Positions 1-35,134 of a stretch of DNA of 35,449 nt are shown here, piece after piece. The notes beneath the pieces are model-generated. The model made no database searches. It saw only the letters and a program-made list of their open reading frames with translations, and was not told where the DNA came from. How positions within the stretch are numbered: the first letter of the stretch is position 1; each line of letters starts with the position of its first letter. The DNA is from Chiloscyllium plagiosum (Eukaryota): the NCBI RefSeq assembly GCF_004010195.1, contig NC_057718.1, positions 87,916,957-87,952,405 on the forward strand. Direction: 5' to 3'. Position numbers and translations under genes: made by a program.

Positions 1-82
1 TAGTCCAGGTAGCTGTGTGAGTCGGTCGGTTTGTAGTAGATGTCAGTGTTGATTCGGTCGCCTGAGATAGAAATAGAAATAG
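1..82 (-). mobile_element. Penelope-like element reverse transcriptase fragment
   Basis: Reverse complement translates ISISISGDRINTDIYYKPTDSHSYLD, the typical PLE RT C-terminal motif (D-I-Y-x-K-P-T-x-S-x-x-Y-L); abuts an oppositely oriented PLE terminus. Confidence 0.85.
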
Positions 83-288
83 TCTGACCTATCACCCTCA
101 CCTTGACCTCTTTCCACCTATCACATTTCCGACGCCCCTCCCCCAAGTCCCTCCTCCCTACCTTTTATCTTAGCCTGCTGGACAAACTTTCCCCATTCCT
201 GAAGAAGGGCTTATGCCCGAAACGTCGATTCTCCTGTTCCCTGGATGCTGCCTGACCTGCTGCGCTTTTCCTGCAACACATTTCCAGC
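83..288 (+). mobile_element. PLE terminal repeat (inverted arm) with hammerhead core
   Basis: Near-identical to 3114-3297 and to the reverse complement of 2550-2755; contains CTGAAGA-A-GGGC-TTAT-GCCC-GAAACGTC. Confidence 0.85.
199..226 (+). ncRNA. Minimal type I hammerhead ribozyme core (PLE-associated)
   Basis: CUGANGA box, stem II GGGC/GCCC with 4-nt loop, GAAA, palindromic ACGT in place of helix III, GUC triplet; stem I weak. Confidence 0.65.
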
Positions 289-2516: not shown

Positions 2517-3297
2517 AAGTGAGGTCTGCAGATGCTGGAGATCAGAGCTGGAAATGTGTTGCTGGAAAAGCGCAGCAGGTCAGGCAGCATCCAGGGAACA
2601 GGAGAATCGACGTTTCGGGCATAAGCCCTTCTTCAGGAATGGGGAAAGTTTGTCCAGCAGGCTAAGAAAAAAGGTAGGGAGGAGGGACATGGGGGAGGGG
2701 CGTCGGAAATGTGATAGGTGGAAAGAGGACAAGGTGAGGGTGATAGGTCAGACTGGAGTGGGGGCGGAGANNNNNNNNNNNNNNNNNNNNNNNNNNNNNN
2801 NNNNNNNNNNNNNNNNNNNNNNNNNNNNNNNNNNNNNNNNNNNNNNNNNNNNNNNNNNNNNNNNNNNNNNNNNNNNNNNNNNNNNNNNNNNNNNNNNNNN
2901 NNNNNNNNNNNNNNNNNNNNNNNNNNNNNNNNNNNNNNNNNNNNNNNNNNNNNNNNNNNNNNNNNNNNNNNNNNNNNNNNNNNNNNNNNNNNNNNNNNNN
3001 NNNNNNNNNNNNNNNNNNNNNNNNNNNNNNNNNNNNNNNNNNNNNNNNNNNNNNNNNNNNNNNNNNNNNNNNNNNNNNNNNNNNNNNNNNNNNNNNNNNN
3101 NNNNNNNNNNNNNCCTCTTTCCACCTATCACATTTCCGACGCCCCTCTCCCAAGTCCCTCCTCCCTACCTTTTATCTTAGCCTGCTGGACAAACTTTCCC
3201 CATTCCTGAAGAAGGGCTTATGCCCGAAACGTCGATTCTCCTGTTCCCTGGATGCTGCCTGACCTGCTGCGCTTTTCCAGCAACACATTTCCAGCTC
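2517..3297. mobile_element. Young PLE insertion with inverted termini and 14-bp TSD
   Basis: Left arm 2517-2770 is the reverse complement of right arm 3114-3297; TSD TGTTATTTGTGGGA at 2503-2516 and 3298-3311; hammerhead cores at 2609-2636 (-) and 3206-3233 (+). Confidence 0.85.
2771..3113. other. Assembly gap (343 N)
   Basis: Run of N between the two inverted arms. Confidence 1.
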
Positions 3298-9299: not shown

Positions 9300-9432
9300 C
9301 TTTCCTAATGAAGGGCTTTTGCCTAAAACATCCATTTTCCTGCTCCTCGGATGCTGTCTGTCTGCTGTGCTTTTCCATCACCACTCTAATATTGACTGTA
9401 ATCTCCAGCATCTGCAGTACCCACTTCTGCCA
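9300..9432 (+). mobile_element. PLE terminal fragment with decayed hammerhead core
   Basis: cctaatgaagggcttttgcctaaaacatc...ctgctcctcggatgctg...ctccagcatctgcagt, homologous to 31816-31945. Confidence 0.8.
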
Positions 9433-13350: not shown

Positions 13351-14895
13351 CTGGTGGTGATCAAGTTGTTGGAGAGAATCCTAAGGGATAGGATTTACAT
13401 GTAATTGGAAAAGCAAGGACTGATTAAGGATAGTCAATATGGCATTGTGCATGGGAAATCATGTCTCACTAACTTAATTGAGTTTTGAAAAAATAACGAA
13501 GAGGATTGAAGAGGGCAGAGTGGTGGACATGATCTATATGGACTTCAGTAAGGCGTTTGGCAAGGTTCCTCATGGTAGACGATTTAGCAAGGTTAGATCA
13601 CATGGAATACAGGGAGAACCAGCCATTTGGATACAGAGGCTAGTTCAGAGGGTGATAGTGGAAGGTTGCATTTCAGACTGGAGGCCTTTGACCAGTGGTA
13701 TGGCACAAAGATTGGTGATGGGTCCACTGCATTTCATCATTTATATAAAAGATTTGGATGTGAACACAGGAAGTATGGTTAGTAAGTTTGAAAATGACAT
13801 CAAAATTGGAGATGTATTGGACAGTGAAGAAGGTTACCCGAGAGTACAATCGAATCTTGATTAGATGGGCCAATGGGCTGAGGAGTGTCAGATGAATTTT
13901 AATTTAGATAAATGTGAGGTACCGCATTTTGGAAAGGCAAATCAAGGCAGAACGTATACACTTAATGATAAGGTCATGGGGAGTGTTGCTGAACAAAGAG
14001 ACCTTGGAGTGCAGGTTCATCATTCCTTGAAAGTGGAATCGCAGGTAGGCAGGATAGTGAAGAAGGTGATTGGTATGCTTTCCTTTATTGGTCGGTTCTT
14101 TGAGTATAGGAGTTGGGAGGTCATATTGCGGCTGTACAGGACATTGATTAGGCCACTTTTGGAATACTGCATGCAGTTCTGGTCTCCTAAAGGGTTCAGA
14201 AAAGATTTACCAGGATGTTGTCAGGAGGATTTGAGCTATAGGGAGAGGCTGAGTAGGCTGGGGCTATATTCCCTGGAGCATCGAAGGCTGAGGGGTGACC
14301 TCATAGAGGTTTCTAAAATATGAGGAGCATGGATAGGGTAATTAGACAAGGTCTTCTTCCTGGGGTAGGGGAGTCCAAACCTTGGAGGCATAGGTTTAAG
14401 GTGAGAGGGGAAAGATTTAAAAGGTACCTAAAGGGCAACATTTTCACGCAGAGGGTGGTGTGTGTATGGAATGAGCTGCCACGGAAGTGGTGGAGTCTGC
14501 TGCAGTTACAGTCAATTCTGCTGTAATGTGGTAGTTCCGTTCTCATGCAATCCCATGTTATAAGAAAATCATGTTCCAGCAGCACCATTTAAACCAATGG
14601 GGTTGAAATTGCATTATAACCAATACTCGCTTTAAAAGTCCGCACTGTAGAAACAGTGTCCCAATTCATCAATCGTTTTGTAATGAATTCACATTAATGA
14701 AACGTGCATTATAGCAGAACAACCTGTACAACATTTTAAAGGCATTTGGATGGGTATATGAATTGGAAGGGTATAGAAGGATATGGGTCATGTATTGACA
14801 AATGGGACTAGATTAATTTAAGATATCTAATCAGCATGGATAAGTTGGACCGAAGGATCTATTTCCGTGCTGTACATCTCTATGACTCTATGACT
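13351..14895 (+). mobile_element. CR1/HER1-type LINE, 5'-truncated, RT pseudogene
   Basis: VDMIYMDFSKAFGKVPH, SKFENDIKIG (decayed FADD), WQMNFNLDKCEV-like, YRERLSRLGLYSLEHRRLRGDLIE; ends in (TCTATGAC)n. Confidence 0.95.
14509..14726. mobile_element. Tc1/mariner (Tigger-like) MITE inserted in CR1
   Basis: TA TSD (14507-14508, 14727-14728); TIRs CAGTCAATTCTGCTGTAATG / CATTATAGCAGAACAACCTG; CR1 sequence resumes on both sides. Confidence 0.85.
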
Positions 14896-16826: not shown

Positions 16827-17409
16827 AAGTTGGGAGGTCATGTTGCAGCTGTATAGGACATTGGTTAGGCCATTGGTTGGAATATTGCGTGCAATTCTGG
16901 TCTCCTAGAGGAAAGATGTTGTGAAACTTGAAAGGGTTCAGAAAAGATTGACAAGGATGTTGCCAGTGTTGGAGGATTTGAGCTATAGGGAGAGGCTGAA
17001 CAGGCTGGGGCTGTTTTCCCTGGAGCGTCGGAGGCTGAGGGGTGACCTTATAGAGGTTTACAAAATTTTGAGGGGCATGGATATGGTAAATAGGCAAAGT
17101 CTTTTCCCTGGGGTCGAGGAGTCCAGAACTAGAGGGCATAGGTTTAGGGTGAAAGGGGAAAGATATAAAGGAGACCTACGGGACAACTTTTTCACCCAGA
17201 GGGTGGTACATGTATGGAATGAGCTGCCAGAGGAAGTGGTGGAGGCTGGTACAATTGCAACATTTAAGAGGCATTTGGATGGGTATATGAATAGGAAGGT
17301 TTTGGAGGGATATGGGTGGGTGCTGGGAGGTGGGACTAGATTGGGTTGGGATATCTGGTCGGCATGGATGGGTTGGACCGAAGGGTCTGTTTCATCTCTA
17401 TGACTCTAT
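16827..17409 (+). mobile_element. Young CR1/HER1-type LINE 3' portion
   Basis: KLERVQKRLTRMLP..YRERLNRLGLFSLERRRLRGDLIEVYKI..FFTQRVVHVWNELPEEVV; TCTATGACTCTAT tail. Confidence 0.95.
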
Positions 17410-20312: not shown

Positions 20313-20545
20313 CATAGATTTAGGGTGAGAGGGGAAAGATATAAAATGGACCTAAGGACAACTTTTTCACGCAGAGGGTGATGCAAGTACGGAATGAGCT
20401 GCCAGAGAAGTAGCAGACACTGGTATATGAATAGGGGCCAAGTGCTGGCAAATGGGACTAGATTAGGTTGGGATATCTGGACAGCATGGACAAGTTGGAC
20501 CGAAGGGTCTGTTTCTGTGCTGTACATCTCTATGACTCTCTATGG
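20313..20545 (+). mobile_element. CR1 3' fragment with internal deletions
   Basis: Matches 17137-17409 with gaps; tctctatgactctctatg tail. Confidence 0.9.
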
Positions 20546-20804
20546 TTTAGATCATTTATGGAAAAAAATAAGAAGCAAATGTGAGTCACTTAAGGAAATC
20601 CAGTTTCAGTGGCATCAGAATGGATCTGTCCTGGATAAACTGGAATCAACACTTGGTAGGCCAACCCACAATAGAACATTGGACTGTCTTTATTTAAAGA
20701 GGAGATAGTTTGGGTGAAATTAGGTATTTTCCATTTTTTTTGGAAGGGAGGATGCAAAGAGAGAGAAGAGAGATAAAGAAGGCAACCCCTACAGAACTTT
20801 ATTG

Positions 20805-22085
20805 ATGTCCAGTGACATACACATCCCTTGATCATCAACCTCTGCTTCCTGCCACTCAGTCAATTCTTTATCCAATTTGCCAAATTTCCTTGGTTCCCAT
20901 GAGCTATTATTATCTTTGCTATCAATTTCCCAAGCATAACTTTATCAAAGGCTTTGCTAAAGTCAAATTAGACTGCATTGAATACATTGCCCTTATATAG
21001 ATACGAGATTACCTCTTTGAAAAATTGAATTCTGTCCCTCAGAATTGCTTCCAATTGTTTCTCAACCACTGAGGTGAGACTGACTGGCCTATAGTTTCCT
21101 CGTTTATCACTTAACTTCCTCCATGAATAGCGGTACCATGTTAGCTGTGCTCCAGTCCTCTGCACTACTTCTTTGGCCAGGGAGGAATTGAAAATTATTG
21201 CCATCACCCCTGCTATTTCCCCCTGTGTTTCACTCAACAGCCTGGGATACATTTCATCTGACACTGGAGATTTGTCTACATTTAAGCCTGCCAAACCACT
21301 CAGAATTTCCTCTCTGCCTATGCTCACTTCTTTAAGTATATCACAGTCTTTCCCCCTGATTTCTATACCCACATCATCCCTCTCACTAGTGACCAGTGAT
21401 ACCACAGTATTCATTTAGTCATGTCCCCTGATCACCGTGATCCTTAATGAGCCTTACTCTTTGCCTGGTTATCCTTTTATCCTTAATATAGTTATTGAAT
21501 AACTTTATTTTACATGCCATTACTTTTTCATGCCCCCTTTTTGCACTTCTGATTTCCTTTATAAGTTTCCCCTCGCATATTCTGTACTCCTACATGGCTT
21601 CTGCTGTTTTCAGCCCCATAAGTCTCCCTTCATTTCCTCATTATCCAATCCTGTACATCCCGTGATATCCAAAGTTTACAGAATTTGTTGACCTTTGTCT
21701 TTATTGGAACATGTTGGCCCTGTACTCTCCCTATTTCCTTTTTGAATGCATCCCACCACACTGACACAAATTTACATAAAATATTGGGTTCCTATCTAGC
21801 CGAGTCATGTCTGATGCTCCGCCATTTCAGGACTTTGATTAAATCCCCTATTATCACTATCCTATTACTTTTACACTTCTCTGAAATTTAAATACATATC
21901 TGCTTTCTATTTCTCTTTGATTATTAGAGAGGGGCTATAGGACACTCCTTGCAACATGATTGTTCCTTTTGGTTTTTAAAGTTTTATCCATACAGCTTCA
22001 TTTGAGAAGCCTTCTCAAATGTTATCCCTCCTTACTGCTGTAATTGATTCCCTGAACAAAATTGTAACACACCCTCCTCCCTCTT
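20805..22085 (-). mobile_element. CR1-type LINE internal ORF2 fragment
   Basis: LNVDKSPVSDEMYPRLL, GNYRPVSLTSVVEKQLEAILRDRI, DFSKAFDKV (~20938-20970). Confidence 0.9.
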
Positions 22086-22104: not shown

Positions 22105-22535
22105 GGTTTAGGTTTCATCCCAGTGAGCTGAACACAAAATGTAAGGTGAGGCTCTAGTACAGTGCCACAATGTTAGAAAAACTTTTCTATAGTAAACATA
22201 AAAATCCCATACCTGAAAATGTGTTGCTGGAAAAGCACAGCAGGTCAGGCAGCATTCAAGGAGCAGGAGAATCGACGTTTCGGGCATGAGCCCTTCTTTT
22301 GGCATTATTCTGAAGAACCAGGAAGATTCCCTGCTGTATCTCTCAATATTTATCCTCCTACTAACATCATTTAAACAAATAATCTGATCATTACCTCACC
22401 ATTGGTAGTTTGCTACTTGTAAATTAACTGCTAAGTTTCCGACATTACAACAGTGATTGAACTTTCAAGAGTGACTAGTGTTTGAGCTGATTTGAACTCT
22501 TGAAAGGTGTTATATTTAAAGTATATCTTTCTTTT
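22105..22535 (+). mobile_element. Deu-domain SINE interrupted by a PLE fragment
   Basis: caatatttatcctc..aatctgatcatta..tttccgacattacaacagtga..tgaaaggtgttatat tail. Confidence 0.6.
22213..22298 (-). mobile_element. PLE terminal fragment
   Basis: aaatgtgttgctggaaaagcacagcaggtcaggcagcat..gagaatcgacgtttcgggcatgagcccttct; truncated inside the CUGA box. Confidence 0.85.
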
Positions 22536-22684: not shown

Positions 22685-24010
22685 TCACAAGTGAAATTGC
22701 CTACCAAACCACTCAGTTGTAGCAACCTACTAATAAGTCTAAAAAGAATTCAATTGAATGGATCATCTTGCATCAATTTAGGTACTGGAAACAACAATAG
22801 CAAACTCACCTTTTCATCCTCACAAAGTTGGAGTGCCCATATGGTCTTGTCTGGTTTTGGATTATAGTTGGATTGATCCAATTGGAGTGAAGGATCTATT
22901 TCCATGCTATATGACTCTATAAACATGTCCTTACTAACCTCTGGAACCTGTGCCAAAATTGGGACAGCTGTCCCACACACTAATCAAGCACAACCTGATT
23001 TAGTCACACTCACCAAATTACATCTTACAATACCCCTGTCCTCACCAATAGCACTCGCAGGTATATCCCTCCTACTGGCAGAACAGACCCCCTGGCATCA
23101 AATCAAAGTTGGGCAGGAAATGGAAGGATATGGGCCAAGTGCCCATATGGTCTTGTCTGGTTTTGGATTATAGTTGGATTGATCCAATTGGAGTGAAGGA
23201 TCTATTTCCATGCTATATGACTCTATAAACATCCTTCTGATTATCATCTACTACTTCACTATGAGTATGACTCCAAGAAATGTATTGATATGATCTCCCC
23301 ATTGTTCAGATGGGGGATAATTATGGAGCCTCCTCTGCCAGCATTCTTCTTATTTGGGTATAGCAAGACAGCAGAGTTTAAATATGATTCAGAAGGTGGA
23401 ATTGTTTAGCTCTGACTATCACATGCCACTTCTCCAATACTCCTCCATACTGTATGCCGATTGAAAGAGATAGCAAGGGTACAGGATGTAATGCTTGTCA
23501 ATATCCATTTCCAAAAGTGGTTCAGTGGCATCAATGCTAGCCAAGACCTAGATCACATAGTTGATAAACTGATGTGTGGCAGATGGCGAGAAAACATACA
23601 GGAAAGAACACTTAGTAGATGTCATCCTCACCAATCAACCTGTCACAGTTGCATTTGTCCATGACAGTGTTGGTAGGAGTGAACACCACAAGGTCTTTGT
23701 GGAGCCAATGCCCATCTTTCATGATAAAAATTCTTTCACTTGTGTGGTGCCACTACCACTGTATTAAATTAAAAAGATTTTGAACGGATCTTGCAATTCA
23801 AAGCTGGCCATCCTTCATGTGTTATGGACCATCTACAACAACAGAATTGTATTCAGCATACCTGTGACCTCTGCCCATCATATCCTCCAATTTACCATTA
23901 CCAATAAACCAAGGTATCAATTCTGGTTCACGAGTGCAAGAGGCATACTAGAAGTTACACCAGACACACATAAAAATGAGGTGTCAACCTGGTGAAACTA
24001 CGAATCAGGA
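22685..24010 (+). mobile_element. Old non-LTR retrotransposon 5'/APE region (same family as 14910-16815)
   Basis: LVDVILTNQPV..DSVGRSEHHKV (decayed LDLILTN...SDH of AP endonuclease); cut at right by the L1. Confidence 0.7.
22832..23232 (+). repeat. Perfect 95-bp direct duplication of a CR1 tail
   Basis: 22832-22926 identical to 23138-23232. Confidence 0.95.
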
Positions 24011-24011
24011 T

Positions 24012-24702
24012 GACTTGCTGCGATTGAGGAAATCCGTGGGGAGATTCGTGCCCAGGTCCAACCTATCGCATCCATGCTGTAGAAGCATGAGCAGGAGATC
24101 CAGGGTCTTGGGGAGAGGCTGGAGGAGGCGGAGGGTCGAACTAAGACCTCGGAAGCTGTGATGGAATCCTCGTCCAGTCGGATGCAGGTGCTGGAGCGAG
24201 AGGTGCGGGCCTTGAGAAACCATATCGATGACCCCGAATTGTCGGGCTCCCTGAAGGTGAGGAAGGTGAGCAGACAGTCAGCTTCTTTGAAAGCTGGCTA
24301 CCGAAATTTTTGGGCCTTCACATCCAGTCCAGCAGATTGCAGATTGAAAGGGCGTATCGGTTTACAGTGCACAGGTCAGGCCCAGTGCTGCACCCCCGCT
24401 CAATCCTAGTGCAATTCCACTCATATAAGGACAAGCAAAAAGTCATAGAAGCTTCCAGATCCCTGGGAAAAGATCCACAGGCACTGCTGTACGAGGGGTC
24501 AAAAATCATGTTTTTCCAGGATTTCTCTGCAGTTGTAATTCGAAAGAGGAAGTCCTTCGATTAAGTTAAAAAGAGGCTGAGGAACCTGGGCATCCAGTAC
24601 TCCATGAGATACCCCGCAGTACTTCATTTCAGCCACGAGGACTCAGTTTATACATTTGACTCGGCGGATAAGGCTAAAAACTTTGTGGACACTTTAAAGT
24701 AG
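24012..24702 (+). pseudogene. L1 ORF1p (coiled coil-RRM-CTD), frameshifted
   Basis: RIVGLPEGEEG, QIERAYR, PRSILVQFHSYKDKQKV, KIMFFQDFS, YSMRYPAVL; premature stop at 24562. Confidence 0.9.
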
Positions 24703-25320
24703 ACAGATTGGCCTGAAGAATACGGTTAATGTTTGTCCTCTTTTCTATCTTTTCCCGTTTTTTGTTTTCCCTTTTTTTATTCCTTTCTGTCTCCCTAATA
24801 ATTTCCTTTTTGGAAAGGGGGAAAAAGCTTTGGAATAAGTTGTTCCTTTTTTTTTTAATAACTGGATTTTCTGATGGGAAATTTTGTGGATGTTTTTTGT
24901 TGATTCTCTCCCTTTGTTTTCTGTTTGTCCTGCATCTCTTTTAGTCACAAGTAGGGTGACATGAAGCCAGGGATGGGTGGAGTGCTCATCCTGACTTTGT
25001 CTTTTTTTCTGTTGATTTAAGGATCATTTCCTTGTTTTTTTTCTGGCCTAAGCCTGGGGCACAGTCCGAGTTTGAAGGAGCTGTGAAGGAGGGGATGGGT
25101 AGGATGTGTGCCCCCTATGGGCAGGGGGAAGAGTCTTCCATTCAAGGTTCTATAGTTGGTTTTCTTTGTAGTTTTTTGGTAGCAATAGTTGTTTATAGTT
25201 ATGATAGAGTAGTTTTTGTATTAATAGTTTTTCGATTCTATGAGTCTTTATTTACTTATGTTCAACGCTTCGTATGCAGGGTTCTCCCTCCGAGGGGTTC
25301 AAGAGTGTCTGAAAGGGGAT

Positions 25321-28300
25321 ATGGCTAAGTGTGTTATTAAATGGTGCACCTGGAACATTAAGGGAAGTCATTCGCCTGTTAAAAGGAAAAAAGTGCTTTT
25401 TAGCCTTAAGAGGGAAAGGGTTGATATTGCTTTGTTACAGGAAACCCATCTTGATGATGGGGAACACCTTAAATTACAACAGGGGGGTTATGACCGGGTA
25501 TTCTTTTCATCCTTTACTACTAAAAGTAGGGGAGTGGTGGAACTTATCCAGAAAAATCTTCTGTTCACATTATTAGAACAGGTGAAAAATGAGCAGGGAC
25601 AGTTTGTGATACTTAAAGCCCTGATACATGGGGAGGGATATGGCATTTTAAATGTCTACTATCCTCCGACGCATCCCCTCAAATGTTTGATTAGTGCTTT
25701 CTCTAAGTTGAGTGCTTTTGGAACATGGCACATTATTATAGGGGGGGATTTTAATTGTCTTTTGGATCCGACAGTGGACAGGATGCCTTGTGGGCCCCCA
25801 ACTATTTCTTCGCAGGCCAAGCAGGTGGTTGACTTATGCGAGGAGTTGGGGCTGGTGGATATTTGGAGATGTCTTCACTCTACCAGCAGGGACTTTACCT
25901 TTTTTTCAAACCCACATAAATGTCACACGAGGATTGACCTCTTTCTGGTTCCCTCGGCCCCTCTGGATTCGATTATGAGTTATAAAATTGGGAATATAAC
26001 TATCTCTGATCACGCGGCAATATATTTGGAGGTTAAGGCCAAGAGTGAAGGGCTAAGTTTGCGGCACTGGCGTTTGGAACCTTTTCTCCTTAAGGATTCC
26101 AAAATTGTGGAATACGTTTTGAAGGAGTTTCAAGAATTCTTGACTATCAACTCAGTAATCCGTCCATGCTATGGGAGACTACTGAGGCCTTTGCTAGGGG
26201 ATTAGCTATTTCCTATTCGACTAGCCAGAAACGACAGAAGGAGGAACAGCAGCGTCAACTTGAGAAACGGTTGAAAGCCGCGGAGGCAGCACATTTTGCA
26301 TGGCCTTCGGTGACTAAGCTACAGCGGATCACGGCCCTTTGGGCTGCCTTGAATTCAATACTGACACAAGACGCAAAGAAAGACGCTTTTGCTAGACAGA
26401 GGCTGTTTGAATATGGGGATAGGTCAGGGAAATATTTAGCATACCTGACTAGGAAAAAGCGTGCTCCCCAATCCATTACTGCAGTCAGAGACAGTGCCGG
26501 GGTCCTTACATACGATGCTAAAAAGATTAATCAGGCTTTTCGGAGATTTTACTCTGAATTGTATCGGTCTGAAGGTTATGAAGACAGGAGGGCTAAAATG
26601 GATACCTTTTTTAAGAACCTGGAACTCCCAGGGGTAACCTTGGAACAGGCTTCTCTCCTTAATGCCCCCTTGACAGTTCAGGAAATACAGGAAGCAGCGA
26701 GGCAACTTCAGAGTGGGAAAGCACCTGGCCCTGATGGTCTTCTGGGTGAGTTTTATAAGGAGTTTATAGGGATTCTGTCAGGGCTGATGTTGGAGATGTA
26801 CAATCACTCCCATATGCATGAATGCTACCACCATCTTTGAGAGAAGCTAATATTTCCTTAATGCTTAAGAAGAGGAAGGTTCCTGAGGATTGTGCCTCAT
26901 ACAGGCCCATCTCTCTATTAAATTCAGATTTCAAGATTCTGTCCAAGATCCTGGCGCTGAGATTGGAAAGGGTGTTGCCCCATATTATTAAAGAGGACCA
27001 GACAGGCTTTATAAGGGGCCATAGGTCCTCTAATAATATTAGAAGGTTGCTGAATGTATTCCAAGTTTGTCAGCAATGATCGATTCAGAGGTTGGTGATT
27101 TCCTTAGATGCAGAGAAAGCATTTGACCGGGTGAAATGGCCATATCTTTTTTATGTCTTAGAACAGTTTGGTTTGGGTGGAGTCTTTGCTAGGTGGGTGG
27201 AGGTTTTATATCACTACCCTCTGGCCGCGGTCATCGCCAGCAGGGTGAAGTGTGGGAATTTTACGATTGGTAGGGGTAGTCGGCAAGGCTGCCCCCTCTT
27301 GCCGTTGTTGTTTACATTGGTGATAGAGCCGTTGGCAGAGGCCATTCATCAGAACGTCCACATAACCACTCCGGAAGTGGGATCGAGGGCACACAAGATT
27401 ACACTGTCCACGGATGATGTCCCTCTGTTTTTATCGAACTTGATGACCTCCGCATCCCATTTGATACAATGTATCAATTCATTTGGGGCAATTTCAGGAT
27501 GTAAGACTAACTTTGCAAAATCAGAGGCTCTGCCTTTGGGGAACCTTAAGGATGTGCCAGAAGTTGAAGGTGGCTCTAAGTTCCTTTTAAGTGGTCACGG
27601 GCAGAGTTCCAGTACCTAGGTATTTTTATTACCCCCAAGTTTGATCTGTTATTTCGGACTAACTTTGCTCACTTGCTCAACAACATTAGGCGAGATCTCC
27701 AGAGATGGGAGGCTCTTCCAATTTCATGGCTGGGCCAAATATCTCTCATTAAGCTGAATGTTCTTCCTCGTTTGCTTTATCCCATGAGTATGCTCCCTAT
27801 AATGTTTCCCGGGTCAATGCTGTGGAAGCTTATGGGGTGGTTTGGTTCCTTTGTTTGACAACGTGGGTGGCCCCTCATCAAACTTACTAAATTGCAATTG
27901 CCTCAAGGGGGGGAAGAGTTGATTTCCCAGACATCAGAAGGTATCAATTGAGTTCCCTGCTGCCCTTTGTCTGCAATTGGGTAGATAACGATTCAAACTC
28001 AATATGGCTGGATATTGAGGCCTCCCAAGCAAAGTGCCCTCTTATTAACCTATTGTTCATGGATAAGATGGGGACAGTTATGGACCACTGCCAGAACCCC
28101 ATTGTCATTAGTACAGTCAAGGCATGGAGGACAATGTGTCAGAGTGAGGGTTGTTTGTCCAAGACTCCGCCGCTTACACCTATAGTTGGCATACCAGGGT
28201 TCCAACCAGGGATAATGGACTCAGGGTTCAAACTATGAGCAGCGAGAGGAATTTCTGGTTTGGGAGACTTGTTTGAGGGGGCGGTTATGATGTGTTTTGA

Positions 28301-29111
28301 GCAATTGAGCTGCAAATACGGGTTGCCCAGCAGAGATCTTTTCCGTTTTTTTCATGTTAGGGATTTCATCCAGAAGAAGACTATGCTTCTCACTAAGCCC
28401 TATAAGCCCAATACAGAGCAGTTGTTGCTACGCTCCACAAGCACCCTTTCGGTTAGTGCCCTCTATCGCCTGTTGGGTGGCAGGGCCTGGCAGAATATTA
28501 ACCAGTTATGTGAGGTCTGGGATCAAGAGCTGGGAGTGGAGATCTCTTCTGAAACATGGGAGAACATATGGGAGCATACTCAAAAGATCTCAATCTGTAA
28601 TAGGACATGCACTACGCAGTTAAAAGTTCTACACAGGGCTCATCTGGCACCAGACTGTCTGGCGAAGTTTAAAAAGGGGGCATCTTCAGTGTGCCCCAAA
28701 TGTAAAATAAGTGTAGGTACTCTTACCCATTGCTTCCTAGACATGCCACAGGCTCCATGTTTATTGGAGAGCTGTGGCGGGAGAGGTAGGGAGGGTATTG
28801 AGAACTGAAATCAAAGTAGTCCCGATATCTCTCCTCTTAGATCCACCGAATTTACCATCTTTAGATGGGCTTGGGAAGAAACCATTTAATATTGTTGCAT
28901 ATTGCGCACGGAAGAATATTCTGATGAACTGGGTGTCTGAGAACTCGCCGGGCTTGCTGGGATGGCAGAAATTAATTGTGGAGCACATCCCCTTGGATTT
29001 TTTTACAAACATGGTACACCACACAACAGACAATTTTTAAAAGACATGGCAGCTTTACTTGAGTATTTGGATATAGATTTGACAGTTACCTTAACTAGGG
29101 CGCTTGTTTAA
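25321..29111 (+). pseudogene. L1 ORF2p (AP endonuclease, RT, CCHC), multiple frameshifts and stops
   Basis: TWNIKG, LQETH, GGDFN, RIDLFL, SDH; KAPGPDG, YRPISLLN, DQTGF, SLDAEKAFDRV, RQGCPL, LSTDD (YADD mutated); CPKC..LTHC. Confidence 0.95.
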
Positions 29112-29636
29112 CCAGGATGATTAGATTTGTCAAGCCCTGGGCCCTGGAGGGGGTCTCCCGAGTTAACACGAGTATGTATACAATGCTCCTGTTCCTTTGT
29201 TTGGGAGCTTTGTGCTCAGCATAGCTGTTCTGTATTTTGTGTTTTTTTGGGGTTTTTTTTGCTTTTCTTTCTTTTTTTGGTGTTGCTTTGCACAGTTTTA
29301 GGGTTTGCTTTGTATTATAGGGTAGGTTAGTAGTTAGTAGATAGTAGTTGTATTGTAATTTGTGTTTTTTTTATTACACTGATATTTGTTATTGATTGTT
29401 TTTTCAAATAATTTTATATGTTTGTAAAGTTAAAAAAATTTGCTAATAAATATATATTTTTTAAACTTTAACTTTTATGACGACTCCAGGGATAGCTGGG
29501 TTTAATTTCCAGTGTGCTACGCCAGTCAGGTGTACTGCAATGATGAAACAAATCCATTCAACCAGAACCAAACGTTTCGGAAGTAAAGTGACTTTATCAC
29601 TGTAAAGATCATTATTGCTTTAAGAAGACAGTCAGT

Positions 29637-31312: not shown

Positions 31313-31763
31313 TAACACCTTACATCATGTTGTGTAGGACTATCACCATGTTAAATGGAATAGACTTCAAACATATCCAGGAACAGTGGACCATAGCAAG
31401 TAAATTAGGGGAGGACTCTGTGAAACAGAGAATGTCTTTTCTACTTTTTCAAGATATAATTAAAAGAATGACCTTTGCTACCCAGCCACTATTGTGGCAC
31501 ACCTTCTGCAGTGAGGAAATCACCTTCAGGAACTTCAGTCGTCCACTGCCACTTCCAGGAACCTGAAGGCTAACTGAAAAATTACAGTCATCCCCTTTTA
31601 AGCGACCATTATCAAGCTGAATTGCAGCAATGTGCAGGTGGGTTACCGTGTGGTATCCACTCACGACCAACCCTCTCATCCATCCCATCTCCAGGAGAAT
31701 TGTTCAGGAATGGGAAGGAGTAGGGGTACACTAACATGCACCAGCCAACATTGCTTCATTAGT

Positions 31764-31947
31764 TGAGAGTGTGGTGCTGGAAAAGCACAGCAGATCAGGC
31801 AGCATCTGAGGAGCATCCTGATGAAGGGCTTATGCCCAAAACGTCGATTCTCCTGCACCTCGGATGCTGCCTGACCTGCTGTGCTTTTCCAGCATCACAC
31901 TCTCGACACTCTGATCTCCAGCATCTGCAGTCCTCACTTTCTCCTAG
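31764..31947 (+). mobile_element. 184-bp PLE-derived hairpin element with 12-bp TSD
   Basis: Inverted arms 31765-31815 / 31854-31904; hammerhead-like core 31818-31845 in the loop (GAAA mutated to AAAA); TSD TGCTTCATTAGT at 31752-31763 and 31948-31959. Confidence 0.9.
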
Positions 31948-32439: not shown

Positions 32440-33245
32440 GCATCTGTACTCTAACCCTGAAGTTATAGAAAATACTTCAGGTCCAGCTGTGTTTGAGTAA
32501 AGGTAGTTTATTTTCCAACCAGGTTCTCGAAAGTTTGTAAAACAAAAAATGACAAGCATACTTAAAATATGTTGATTGTTAGAGTATATGAACTGGCTGT
32601 GGTCAGTAAAAGTTGACACATGATTAATGTTCTAAGACACGGTTTCTAATATCAAGAGTTGCTTCAGTGAAGATTTGTGATAGTGAATAGATGTTTTGTT
32701 CCGAGCAGTATGCTACAGTCACACAGTTTTTAGGTGCTTGTTCACTCATTATTCTTGGAGCCAAGAACAGCTACTGGACTGTTTGCAGCCTCATCCAAAG
32801 TGGCAGAAATCGACAAAAATGTTTGCAACGAGAAAGAAAATATCGGAACATCTGGTTTCTGTCTGCTGCCAAGAAAAGGAAGGAAGGGGGTGGGGAAGGG
32901 AGAGAAGCTTGTTAAATTATACAAGTTGACTTACTAAAATGTTGTGCACAAAGGAAGAAGCAAGGAAACCTTCTAGAAGGTTGTGAGAAGACTTTTTTGA
33001 TTTAACGGATGTGTGGCAAAGTGATGAGGTAGGAGAATTCAGAGGGAACCTGAGCAAAGACTTCCCAGTTGGGGGTTCCAAGATGGCAGTGACTCAGCAA
33101 ATCTGAGTCTATAGTGCTCCTCCCAAGACCTAGGCAAAGTGGGCCACCCTCCTCCACCACACTCACCAAATCAATTAAAAATAGTTTTTACTTAATGTAA
33201 TTAGTGGTTTAGTACTAAATTTATACAGTTCAGTCTCATGTAAAA

Positions 33246-34095
33246 ATGACTAGGGGGAAAGGAGCCCGCAGTTCTCAGCAGGCAGGAGCCCCTCCCCCAC
33301 CCTCCCCAGCTGCAGCAGAGGCGTCCGCAGCCACCCCAGGGGACTTACCTGCGGTGGCGAGCCTCACGGAAATAATCTCCAAACTCAACGCGAAGATCGA
33401 TGCTTTCATAGAAGAGTCCCGAAGTCGGTGGAATTCATTCTCAGCTGCGCTACGAAAGCACGGCCGAGACATCGAAGAAATTGAATGCCGAGTCGGAGGG
33501 GTGGAGCTAAAGGCCGCGACCTCCGAGGCCATTGCAAAATCGGCCGTGGATCGGGTCCGGACTCTCAAGCAGCAAGTCCAGACCTTAGAGAATCACATTG
33601 ATGACCTCGAGAATCGCTGGGCCTTCCCGAATGGGAAGAAGAAGCCAGCTTACAAGGTTCCTTGAACAGTGGCTTCCACAGTTATTGAATCTGGAGGCTG
33701 GATCAGGCCAGGTAAGGGTAGAATGGGCCTACCGAATTGCAATACGCGGGCCCAGCTCGAACCAGCGCTCCCGCCCGGTCCTGTTCCGGCTGCAGAGCTA
33801 TAAGGTGAGGCAGATGCTCTTGGAAGCTTCCAGAAATCTTGGGAAAGATCCCCAAACCATGACTTATAAAGGATCCAAAATTATGTTATTTCAGGGCTTT
33901 TCCTCAGCTTTGGTCCAAAAGAGGAAGGCGTTTGATGAAGCAAAGAAGTGTTTAAGGGATTTAAACATTCAATACTCCTTGCGCTACCCAGCTATACTAC
34001 GCTTTAGCCATGAAGGGTCAGTGTATAACTTCGGATCACCGGAGAAGGCCAAGGAACTTTTGGACTCTCTTAGACAAATTATAAGAGTTAATTGA
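33246..34095 (+). pseudogene. L1 ORF1p, frameshifted near 33618-33645
   Basis: Coiled coil ending IDDLENR, then LGLPE, FLEQWLP, RPVLFRLQSYK, KIMLFQGFS, YSLRYPAILR. Confidence 0.9.
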
Positions 34096-34141
34096 TGTTG
34101 TTTTGCCCTACCCCCACCCCAGTTTACCCCCCTTTTTTTAC

Positions 34142-34249
34142 GGGGGAAAGGAGCCCGCAGTTCTCAGCAGGCAGGAGCCCCGCACCCACCCTCCCCAGCT
34201 GCAGCAGAGGCGTCCGCAGCTGCCCCGGGGGACTTACCTACGGTGGCGA
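34142..34249 (+). repeat. Internal duplicate of ORF1 5' end
   Basis: 108 bp, 102/108 identical to 33253-33360. Confidence 0.95.
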
Positions 34250-35134
34250 ACGATTGTGGGGTGCCTGGGTCAAGGGTGGGGCACTGGTTGGGAGAGGTTA
34301 TGATGGGTTTTTTGGAAAGGAAGTGATGCCCCCTGGGAATAAGGGGGAAGATCTCCATTTAAATACGTTTTATACTTTTTTTTACTATTTAGAAATAGTT
34401 TATTTTATTATCTTGATCTGAATGCACTAAAGAGCTTTTATTTTTGTGAATTTTATATGCTCTATGCTCGGGATGTTTTGGATAAATATGGGTTTTGTTG
34501 TGATCTGATGTTAACACATTCCGAGCATGTATATCACTGCTCAATTTATGTGTTATCCGTTGGATTTTTTATTTTCTCTCTTGAATAATGTAAGAATTTT
34601 AATGATACACTCTGGTTAGTTGTAAGTTAGATGAGTAGTTAGTTGAGTTTTGTTTTTATTTCTCTTGGTATTTCTGTTTTCTTGTTTGATAGATTTTGGT
34701 TATCATTTATTTAAGATTTAACTGTATATCAATGTTTATATTTGGGTTTTTTTTAGTTTTCTTTTGTAAACTTGTTAAAACATGTTAAAATTTTCAATAA
34801 AAATATTAAAAAAAAGACTTCCCAGTTAAACATCTGGGTCTGCTTGATTTTCACATGCAAGAATGCCATCCTACTACTGGTAGATATATTGTTGCAATGA
34901 TCTAAGTGACAGTATGTTTGTTTTTAGTTTAATTGGGAGTGCTGAACCAGTCTGACTTGGAGTCTAGTAAAGTCTGTCTCTTAATCTGGCTGAAACACTT
35001 CATTTCCTACGAAGAATAGTGAATCAGTTGATGGAACACTTGAGGTTTTAAGCGTGAAACTGAAACTTCAACATGATGGATTAACAGGCAAATCTTGTTA
35101 GACTTTGTTCTATTAGTGAGGAGCAGGCAGGTAA

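What the first reader, a model, noticed from the sequence alone, without database searches (positions are those of the whole stretch)
33056..34827. Complete, TSD-flanked ORF1-only L1 element: candidate shark 'Half-L1' family
Seen: intact 5' end (G-run, CAAGATGGC), 5' UTR, ORF1, inter-ORF spacer, then a jump at ~34470-34505 into 3' UTR-like sequence (gttaacac..gag.atgtata, compare 29162-29181), AATAAA, A tail and a perfect 15-bp TSD. No APE or RT codons remain. Known: HAL1 elements are non-autonomous L1 derivatives that encode only ORF1p and use ORF2p in trans. Inference: this may be an independently arisen HAL1-type family, with a related autonomous-type L1 about 4 kb upstream. I cannot tell from one copy whether ORF2 was lost before or after insertion.
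Basis: partly seen in the sequence, partly recalled or inferred. Interest (0 to 1): 0.7.

Follow-up and report, generated by a model that had tools for sequence, protein, structure and literature searches.

The report
Decayed shark LINE-1 copy lacking ORF2
This is an old, broken copy of a common shark jumping gene that has lost its copying-enzyme gene, most likely by a one-off deletion, though a small mobile family built this way is not ruled out.

Summary
The anatomy is real: exact 15-bp TSD, fish-type L1 5' end, ORF1, spacer, a jump at 34484/34485 into the 3' end, and no ORF2 domain. Four public runs laid on 33365-35000 show a very abundant family. At 34484 relatives run on into sequence like the ORF2-proximal spacer of the upstream L1 (15 and 28 contigs, 32 reads), and two listed records enter the 3' end from other sequence. 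No listed record bridges the junction, but the output was heavily cut, so a minority junction-sharing subfamily is not excluded. ORF1 differences from relatives look neutral (10 synonymous, 15 not). Best reading (0.57): a single rearranged, decayed copy of an ORF2-bearing L1 family. A mobilised ORF1-only (HAL1-type) subfamily or family remains at about 0.38, favoured by the neat removal of ORF2 and by similar ORF1 and 3' UTR depth. Even if true, it is a new member of a known kind.

The parts
33056..33070 (.). 5' copy of the 15-bp target site duplication
   Evidence: exact match to 34813-34827; chance control
33071..33245 (+). 175-nt 5' UTR with G-run and CAAGATGGC (33079-33087)
   Evidence: motif and short fish-type 5' UTR described in PMC5381506 (passages); not covered by the read lay
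33246..34077 (+). ORF1 pseudogene (coiled coil, RRM, CTD); relatives stop at 34075-34077, this copy reads on to 34095
   Evidence: stop in relatives table 3
33617..33644 (+). ORF1 break: about 25 nt missing from the conserved LENR..RR.N.R linker, plus a second frame change
   Evidence: tblastn with P0003 and P0004, frames, loose ends before 33644 in 11 and 19 contigs
34078..34141 (+). left remnant of the T-rich inter-ORF spacer
   Evidence: 3 X16 contigs run on with other sequence behind 34139
34142..34249 (+). 108-nt copy of the ORF1 start (33253-33360), 102 of 108 identical, standing where relatives have spacer
   Evidence: loose ends before 34253-34263 in X13 (7), X21 (40), X16 (6 and 4)
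34250..34484 (+). right part of the inter-ORF spacer, ending about 40 nt before where ORF2 would start
   Evidence: aligns to 25043-25263; relatives' continuation matches 25279-25298, ORF2 ATG at 25321
34484..34485 (+). deletion junction, 0-1 nt overlap; about 3.8 kb missing if colinear with the upstream L1
   Evidence: tables 7 and 8; size (inferred)
34485..34812 (+). 3' end: possibly the last five ORF2 codons, then T-rich 3' UTR, AATAAA (34796-34801) and short A tail
   Evidence: 10 of 15 nt like 29094-29108 (suggestive only)
34813..34827 (.). 3' copy of the target site duplication
   Evidence: X1 record 8 crosses it with no difference
24000..29465 (+). comparator, not part of the finding: decayed ORF1+ORF2 L1 of another family (5' edge approximate)
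   Evidence: APE and RT Pfam hits, colinear with full-length ORF2 P0197; no TSD found

Best explanation
One old copy of an abundant, ORF2-bearing, fish-type L1 family of carpet sharks. It inserted by target-primed reverse transcription (shown by the TSD, A tail and 5' end). It lost ORF2 in a single-locus event (inferred), either by a reverse-transcriptase jump during insertion or by a later deletion. A similar event replaced part of the spacer with 108 nt of the ORF1 start. It has since decayed neutrally and cannot move or make ORF1p. I lean to rearrangement at or soon after insertion, because the 108-nt copy has diverged as much as expected for the element's age; a later patch from another family copy would look the same.
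For:: behind 34484 relatives continue with other sequence in X1 (15 contigs), X13 (28, plus 9 at 34477) and X21 (32 raw reads). That sequence matches the upstream L1 spacer 42 nt before its ORF2 ATG, its best match in the window. X1 record 7 enters at 34485 after 18 unlike letters. X16 record 21 enters at 34484 after 162 unlike letters (my reading of minus-strand record coordinates). None of the 24 listed piece rows bridges the junction. In X21 at most 17 reads (depth at 34502) could span it, against 32 that do not. Single-contig internal deletions occur in this family, for example 33506 to 34752 at depth 38 against flank depth 37 in X13. The copy has three other lesions absent from the relatives seen. 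ORF1: 10 synonymous and 15 non-synonymous differences, neutral expectation 33% synonymous, p 0.28 for excess. At 12 sites picked for the check, the window letter holds under 4% of depth at 11 sites in X1 and 9 in X13. Large deletions dominate LINE decay in stickleback (PMC3381678, passages). Template switches and templated insertions occur during L1 insertion (PMC11702581; 10.1101/2024.08.27.596794; passages).
Against: ORF2 was never seen attached to this family: loose ends are printed to 30 letters only. The deletion is unusually neat (about 40 nt before the start, about 15-20 nt before the stop). No loose end 'before 34485' is among the six listed per run, though 21-31% of the left-side depth persists right of the junction. 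Depth of 3' UTR over ORF1 is only 1.0-1.3 by mean and 1.2-2.1 by median, low for a 6-kb element with heavy 5' truncation; the tool warns that depth is not copy number. The internal deletions in the cited tumour study are short and tied to inversions, so they are not a direct precedent for a 3.8-kb skip.
Confidence: 0.57

Rival explanations
1. A minority HAL1-type subfamily: the junction arose once in a master copy that kept the promoter, ORF1, spacer and 3' end, and was then copied to many sites using ORF2p from the parent L1. This locus is a decayed member with further private damage.
For: Neat removal of ORF2 with both flanking signals kept. Depth right of the junction leaves room for up to about a quarter to a third of records. 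No listed 'before 34485' loose end. HAL1 arose several times in mammals (PMC5753468, passages). A family multiplies its junction, so family members are over-sampled among ORF2-less copies (inference).
Against: No bridging record is listed. Relatives that are seen leave the junction on both sides. There is no synonymous excess that would mark a separately selected ORF1 lineage. No look-alike window among the scan's notes.
Confidence: 0.28
2. The whole abundant family is ORF2-less or nearly so (about 2-2.5 kb, keeping scraps of both ORF2 ends), and this copy lost only a shorter middle piece.
For: Near-equal depth over ORF1, spacer and 3' UTR in X1, X13 and X16. The missing piece is shown only to exceed roughly 130-160 nt (record 21).
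Against: Both break flanks match the sequence bordering ORF2 in an autonomous-type L1. It needs two deletions. Summed contig depth is a poor measure, and the T-rich 3' UTR is probably under-counted.
Confidence: 0.1
3. Assembly collapse joined two family copies, or dropped ORF2.
For: High-copy repeat; the window has an N gap elsewhere (2771-3113); no listed record spans the whole stretch.
Against: The exact TSD ties both ends to one insertion. A junction with 0-1 nt overlap is not what overlap-based collapse gives (inference). X1 has depth in all 30 bins and an identical 3' flank record.
Confidence: 0.03

Closest known systems
Fish-type vertebrate L1 families (zebrafish, frog; PMC5381506, passages)
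   Same: Short 5' UTR (175 nt here, about 0.16 kb in fish), ORF1 about 0.85 kb, long T-rich inter-ORF spacer, T-rich 3' UTR, AATAAA and A tail, TSD.
   Different: ORF2 absent, ORF1 broken, spacer partly replaced by a copy of the ORF1 start. Sharks are not mentioned in that paper (0 occurrences).
HAL1 (half-L1) of mammals (PMC5753468, PMC3627910, PMC5786205, passages; Bao and Jurka 2010 not held, seen only as a citation)
   Same: L1 5' part with ORF1 joined to an L1 3' end, with no ORF2.
   Different: HAL1s are multi-copy families with maintained ORF1 coding capacity. Here the ORF1 is dead with neutral-looking changes, and a shared junction was not seen.
Other internally deleted non-autonomous LINEs: HeT-A, Ag-Sponge, R2 SIDEs (PMC5786205; PMC3414825; passages)
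   Same: Bipartite layout: 5' and 3' parts of an autonomous LINE.
   Different: Derived from other clades (Jockey, CR1, R2) and described as families; not shown for this copy.

Membership tests
Vertebrate L1 clade element (copy) | L1-type ORF1p (coiled coil, RRM, CTD) | tested here: met
   PDB hits to human ORF1p, E 5.6e-6; 870 relatives at E<=0.001; no Pfam L1 hit for the window piece itself
Vertebrate L1 clade element (copy) | TPRT hallmarks: TSD, polyadenylation signal, A tail | tested here: met
Vertebrate L1 clade element (copy) | ORF2 with APE and RT in the family | tested here: inconclusive
   absent in this copy; relatives run towards the ORF2 start, but only 30 letters are printed
HAL1-type non-autonomous family | ORF1 present, ORF2 absent | tested here: met
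   for this one copy
HAL1-type non-autonomous family | Same junction at several loci with different TSDs | tested here: inconclusive
   no bridging record among 24 of 10,618 piece rows; relatives seen leave the junction; no genome held
HAL1-type non-autonomous family | ORF1 coding capacity maintained by selection in the ORF2-less lineage | tested here: not met
   for this copy only: two frame changes, and 10 synonymous to 15 non-synonymous differences against relatives; dead copies of true HAL1 families exist, so this does not exclude the family
HAL1-type non-autonomous family | Mobilised in trans by ORF2p of an autonomous L1 | not testable with these tools
   needs a retrotransposition assay or dated co-amplification
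Named Repbase/Dfam shark L1 or HAL1 family | Sequence match to a library entry | not testable with these tools
   no repeat library on hand

The most novel reading that the evidence does not exclude
Carpet sharks carry an independently born HAL1-type retroposon (a subfamily, or the whole abundant family) that cut out ORF2 almost exactly, kept the promoter, ORF1, most of the spacer and the 3' end, and spread by borrowing ORF2p. It would extend HAL1 beyond mammals among vertebrates and suggest that the spacer carries needed signals.
Probability: 0.38. Interest if true: 0.45.

Novelty: new member of a known kind. Interest (0 to 1): 0.22.

Why it matters
If private, it is an ordinary fossil. It is mildly useful as an example of two rearrangements inside one full-length L1 insertion, and as a probable presence marker shared by two labelled organisms. 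If the junction is shared, it would be a HAL1-type family in cartilaginous fish, for which my searches found no report (Bao and Jurka 2010 and Repbase could not be read). That would add an independent case to the idea that ORF1p in cis helps a non-autonomous RNA recruit ORF2p. The kind itself is known from mammals, flies and mosquitoes.

Tried and rejected
No whole genome is held, so the direct junction count was impossible. ORF1-related loci: none in metagenome, genome or viral contigs; a spacer motif scan of metagenomes found 0. Protein searches: ORF1 C-terminal piece against longer proteins, 0 of 500 candidates; upstream ORF2 C-terminal piece, 0 of 5; upstream APE gave 42 hits of 69 candidates, none with an N-terminal extension matching the family's spacer, so ORF2 could not be tied to this family that way. 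Splicing of ORF2 as an intron: rejected, because the skipped part begins GG, not GT, and the window lacks the bases a shifted cut would leave. Long microhomology at the junction: not seen (0-1 nt). The upstream L1 as parent or partner: rejected (67% identity, broken). A recent origin of the 108-nt copy from this element's own ORF1: disfavoured (6 of 108 differences; 7.6 expected if as old as the insertion). Expression: one search listed no holder on record as RNA. In the laid raw RNA run 0 of 467 reads were 99+% alike and about 2% of the run was read, so the reads come from other copies; this says nothing on this locus. Earlier scan notes held no look-alike stretch. Bao and Jurka 2010 is not held. 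No supplementary files were read; repeat tables in shark genome supplements could already list this family.

Full report
Observation. The element runs from 33071 to 34812 between two exact 15-bp repeats. Among 3000 random window pairs at similar spacing, 2 reached 15 nt (most likely this same pair, not checked) and all others had 11 or fewer. It starts with five G and CAAGATGGC, has a 175-nt 5' UTR, and ends with AATAAA and five A. The ORF is an L1 ORF1p: its C-terminal half hits human ORF1p structures at E 5.6e-6 and 870 cluster representatives at E<=0.001. The closest named relatives are from Chiloscyllium punctatum (74%) and Hemiscyllium ocellatum (67%) (10 of 150 listed hits looked up). 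Pfam gave no L1 family for the window pieces. No APE or RT remnant was found with 48 ORF2-type or fused proteins or the upstream ORF2 frames (best E 0.064 in the printed, truncated output).

ORF1 is broken: about 25 nt of the conserved linker are missing near 33617 and there is a second frame change near 33643. Positions 34142-34249 are a 102-of-108 copy of the ORF1 start. The upstream L1 is only 67% identical over 287 nt of ORF1 and is itself broken, so it serves as a ruler, not a parent.

Relatives. No genome is held. A run search listed 24 runs from four coded organisms, 20 of them holding part of the stretch. I laid 4 of the 24 on 33365-35000 at 80% likeness; the 5' end and 5' flank were not covered. 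The family is abundant: 4941 and 5060 contigs were laid in the two DNA runs, with summed depth in the thousands to over 100,000 against 3.8 and 37 on the flank. Depth is not a copy number. The largest class of records in the DNA runs is 90-95% alike. The output shows only 40 of 501 letter differences, 24 of 942 loose ends and 24 of 10,618 piece rows.

The junction. Behind 34484 relatives go on with other letters in X1 (15 contigs), X13 (28, plus 9 behind 34477) and X21 (32 reads); X16 does not list it. These letters match 25279-25298 of the upstream L1, their best match in the window, 42 nt before its ORF2 ATG. On the other side X1 record 7 begins at 34485 after 18 unlike letters, and X16 record 21 begins at 34484 after 162 unlike letters. 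The second figure rests on reading minus-strand record coordinates on the record's own strand, which I infer from two records sharing the same end at 34721. The first 15 nt after the junction match the last five codons of the upstream ORF2 at 10 of 15, the only such match among 261 nearby positions but one of 76 in 35,433 window positions, so this is suggestive only. The full-length relative P0197 ends in a similar peptide. If colinear, about 3.8 kb is missing, with 0-1 nt overlap. No listed piece bridges the junction. In X21 at most 17 reads could span it. ORF2 itself was never read attached to this family.

Other lesions are absent from the relatives seen. They have different sequence behind 34139 and before 34253-34263, so the 108-nt copy replaces spacer here. 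Of the 26 listed ORF1 differences I used 25 (33632, inside the break, was dropped): 10 are synonymous and 15 are not, against a neutral expectation of 33% synonymous (p 0.28 for excess); 23 are transitions and 9 sit in CpG context. These are the best-supported rows, not all differences. One removes the stop that relatives have at 34075. The two versions of the 108-nt piece differ at 6 sites, close to the 7.6 expected if the duplication is as old as the insertion. X13 also shows other single-contig internal deletions, including 33506 to 34752 at about single-copy depth.

Mechanism. Shown: insertion by TPRT, loss of ORF2-sized sequence relative to the ruler, and a dead ORF1. Inferred: the family carries ORF2; the loss happened in this copy; and a polymerase jump during or soon after insertion made both the skip and the 108-nt patch. 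Template switching and templated insertions during L1 integration are described (PMC11702581; 10.1101/2024.08.27.596794; passages only), though the deletions there are short. Large post-insertion deletions dominate LINE decay in stickleback (PMC3381678, passages). An unchecked note from this genome (e1-7858584) reports a similar local template switch in a Penelope copy; I did not test it.

Against this reading. The deletion removes ORF2 almost exactly. Depth right of the junction is still 21-31% of the estimated left-side depth, and no 'before 34485' loose end is among the six listed per run. Depth of 3' UTR over ORF1 is 0.98-1.26 by mean and 1.2-2.1 by median, lower than heavy 5' truncation of a 6-kb element would give. 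These points keep alive a minority HAL1-type subfamily (0.28) and an ORF2-less family (0.10).

Comparison with what is known. The layout fits fish-type L1 (PMC5381506, passages). HAL1s are ORF1-only L1 derivatives that arose several times in mammals and kept ORF1 coding (PMC5753468; PMC3627910; PMC4161310; passages). HeT-A, Ag-Sponge and R2 SIDEs are parallel cases (PMC5786205; PMC3414825; passages). The copy looks like a HAL1, but membership is not shown: the shared-junction test is inconclusive and maintained ORF1 is not met for this copy. Searches for a shark HAL1 gave only unrelated listings (listings only). Bao and Jurka 2010 was not held, and Repbase, Dfam and supplements were not seen. 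Unchecked scan notes list several ORF1-only families in other genomes (e1-7856012, e1-7826379), so the kind is not rare.

Verdict. A real but probably ordinary object: a decayed, internally rearranged copy of an abundant shark L1 family (0.57). The HAL1-family reading stays open at about 0.38 and can be settled by one junction count in the assembly. Interest 0.22, or 0.45 if the family is real.

Noticed in passing
window 24225-24240 and 33617-33620: Both L1 copies, of different families, have lost a short piece at the same conserved ORF1 linker between coiled coil and RRM. Coincidence or a deletion-prone spot.
   Followed up: partly
window 34530-34605, 34647-34694: Relatives show 3' UTR length variants: a joint 34530 to 34605 at depth 318 in X13, and a 46-nt skip in X16, suggesting subfamilies.
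   Followed up: no
window 33506-34752: One X13 contig at about single-copy depth joins ORF1 straight to the far 3' UTR: another internally deleted copy with its own junction.
   Followed up: partly
window 34791-35000: X13 (organism B) record 16 holds the tail, TSD and 3' flank with 3 differences and 5 gaps, so the insertion is probably shared by organisms A and B. Only 22 nt lie on the element side of the TSD, below the tool's bridging rule.
   Followed up: partly
window 81-288, 2547-2754, 3114-3295: Near-identical (98-99%) inverted and direct repeats around the N gap 2771-3113; possible assembly trouble or a recent fold-back.
   Followed up: no
window 31762-31907: Palindromic element of about 150 nt (54-nt arms, 91% complementary), with related pieces at 197-280, 2543-2640, 9303-9386 and 22208-22305.
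   Followed up: no
window 22832-22926 and 23138-23232: Perfect 95-nt direct repeat, 306 nt apart.
   Followed up: no
window 13478-14500, 16909-17403, 20313-21414: Several decayed LINE fragments alike to each other; they look like CR1-group reverse transcriptase ends (recalled, not tested).
   Followed up: no
window 17652: A second CAAGATGGC with no G-run before it and no evident ORF1 behind it; probably chance.
   Followed up: yes
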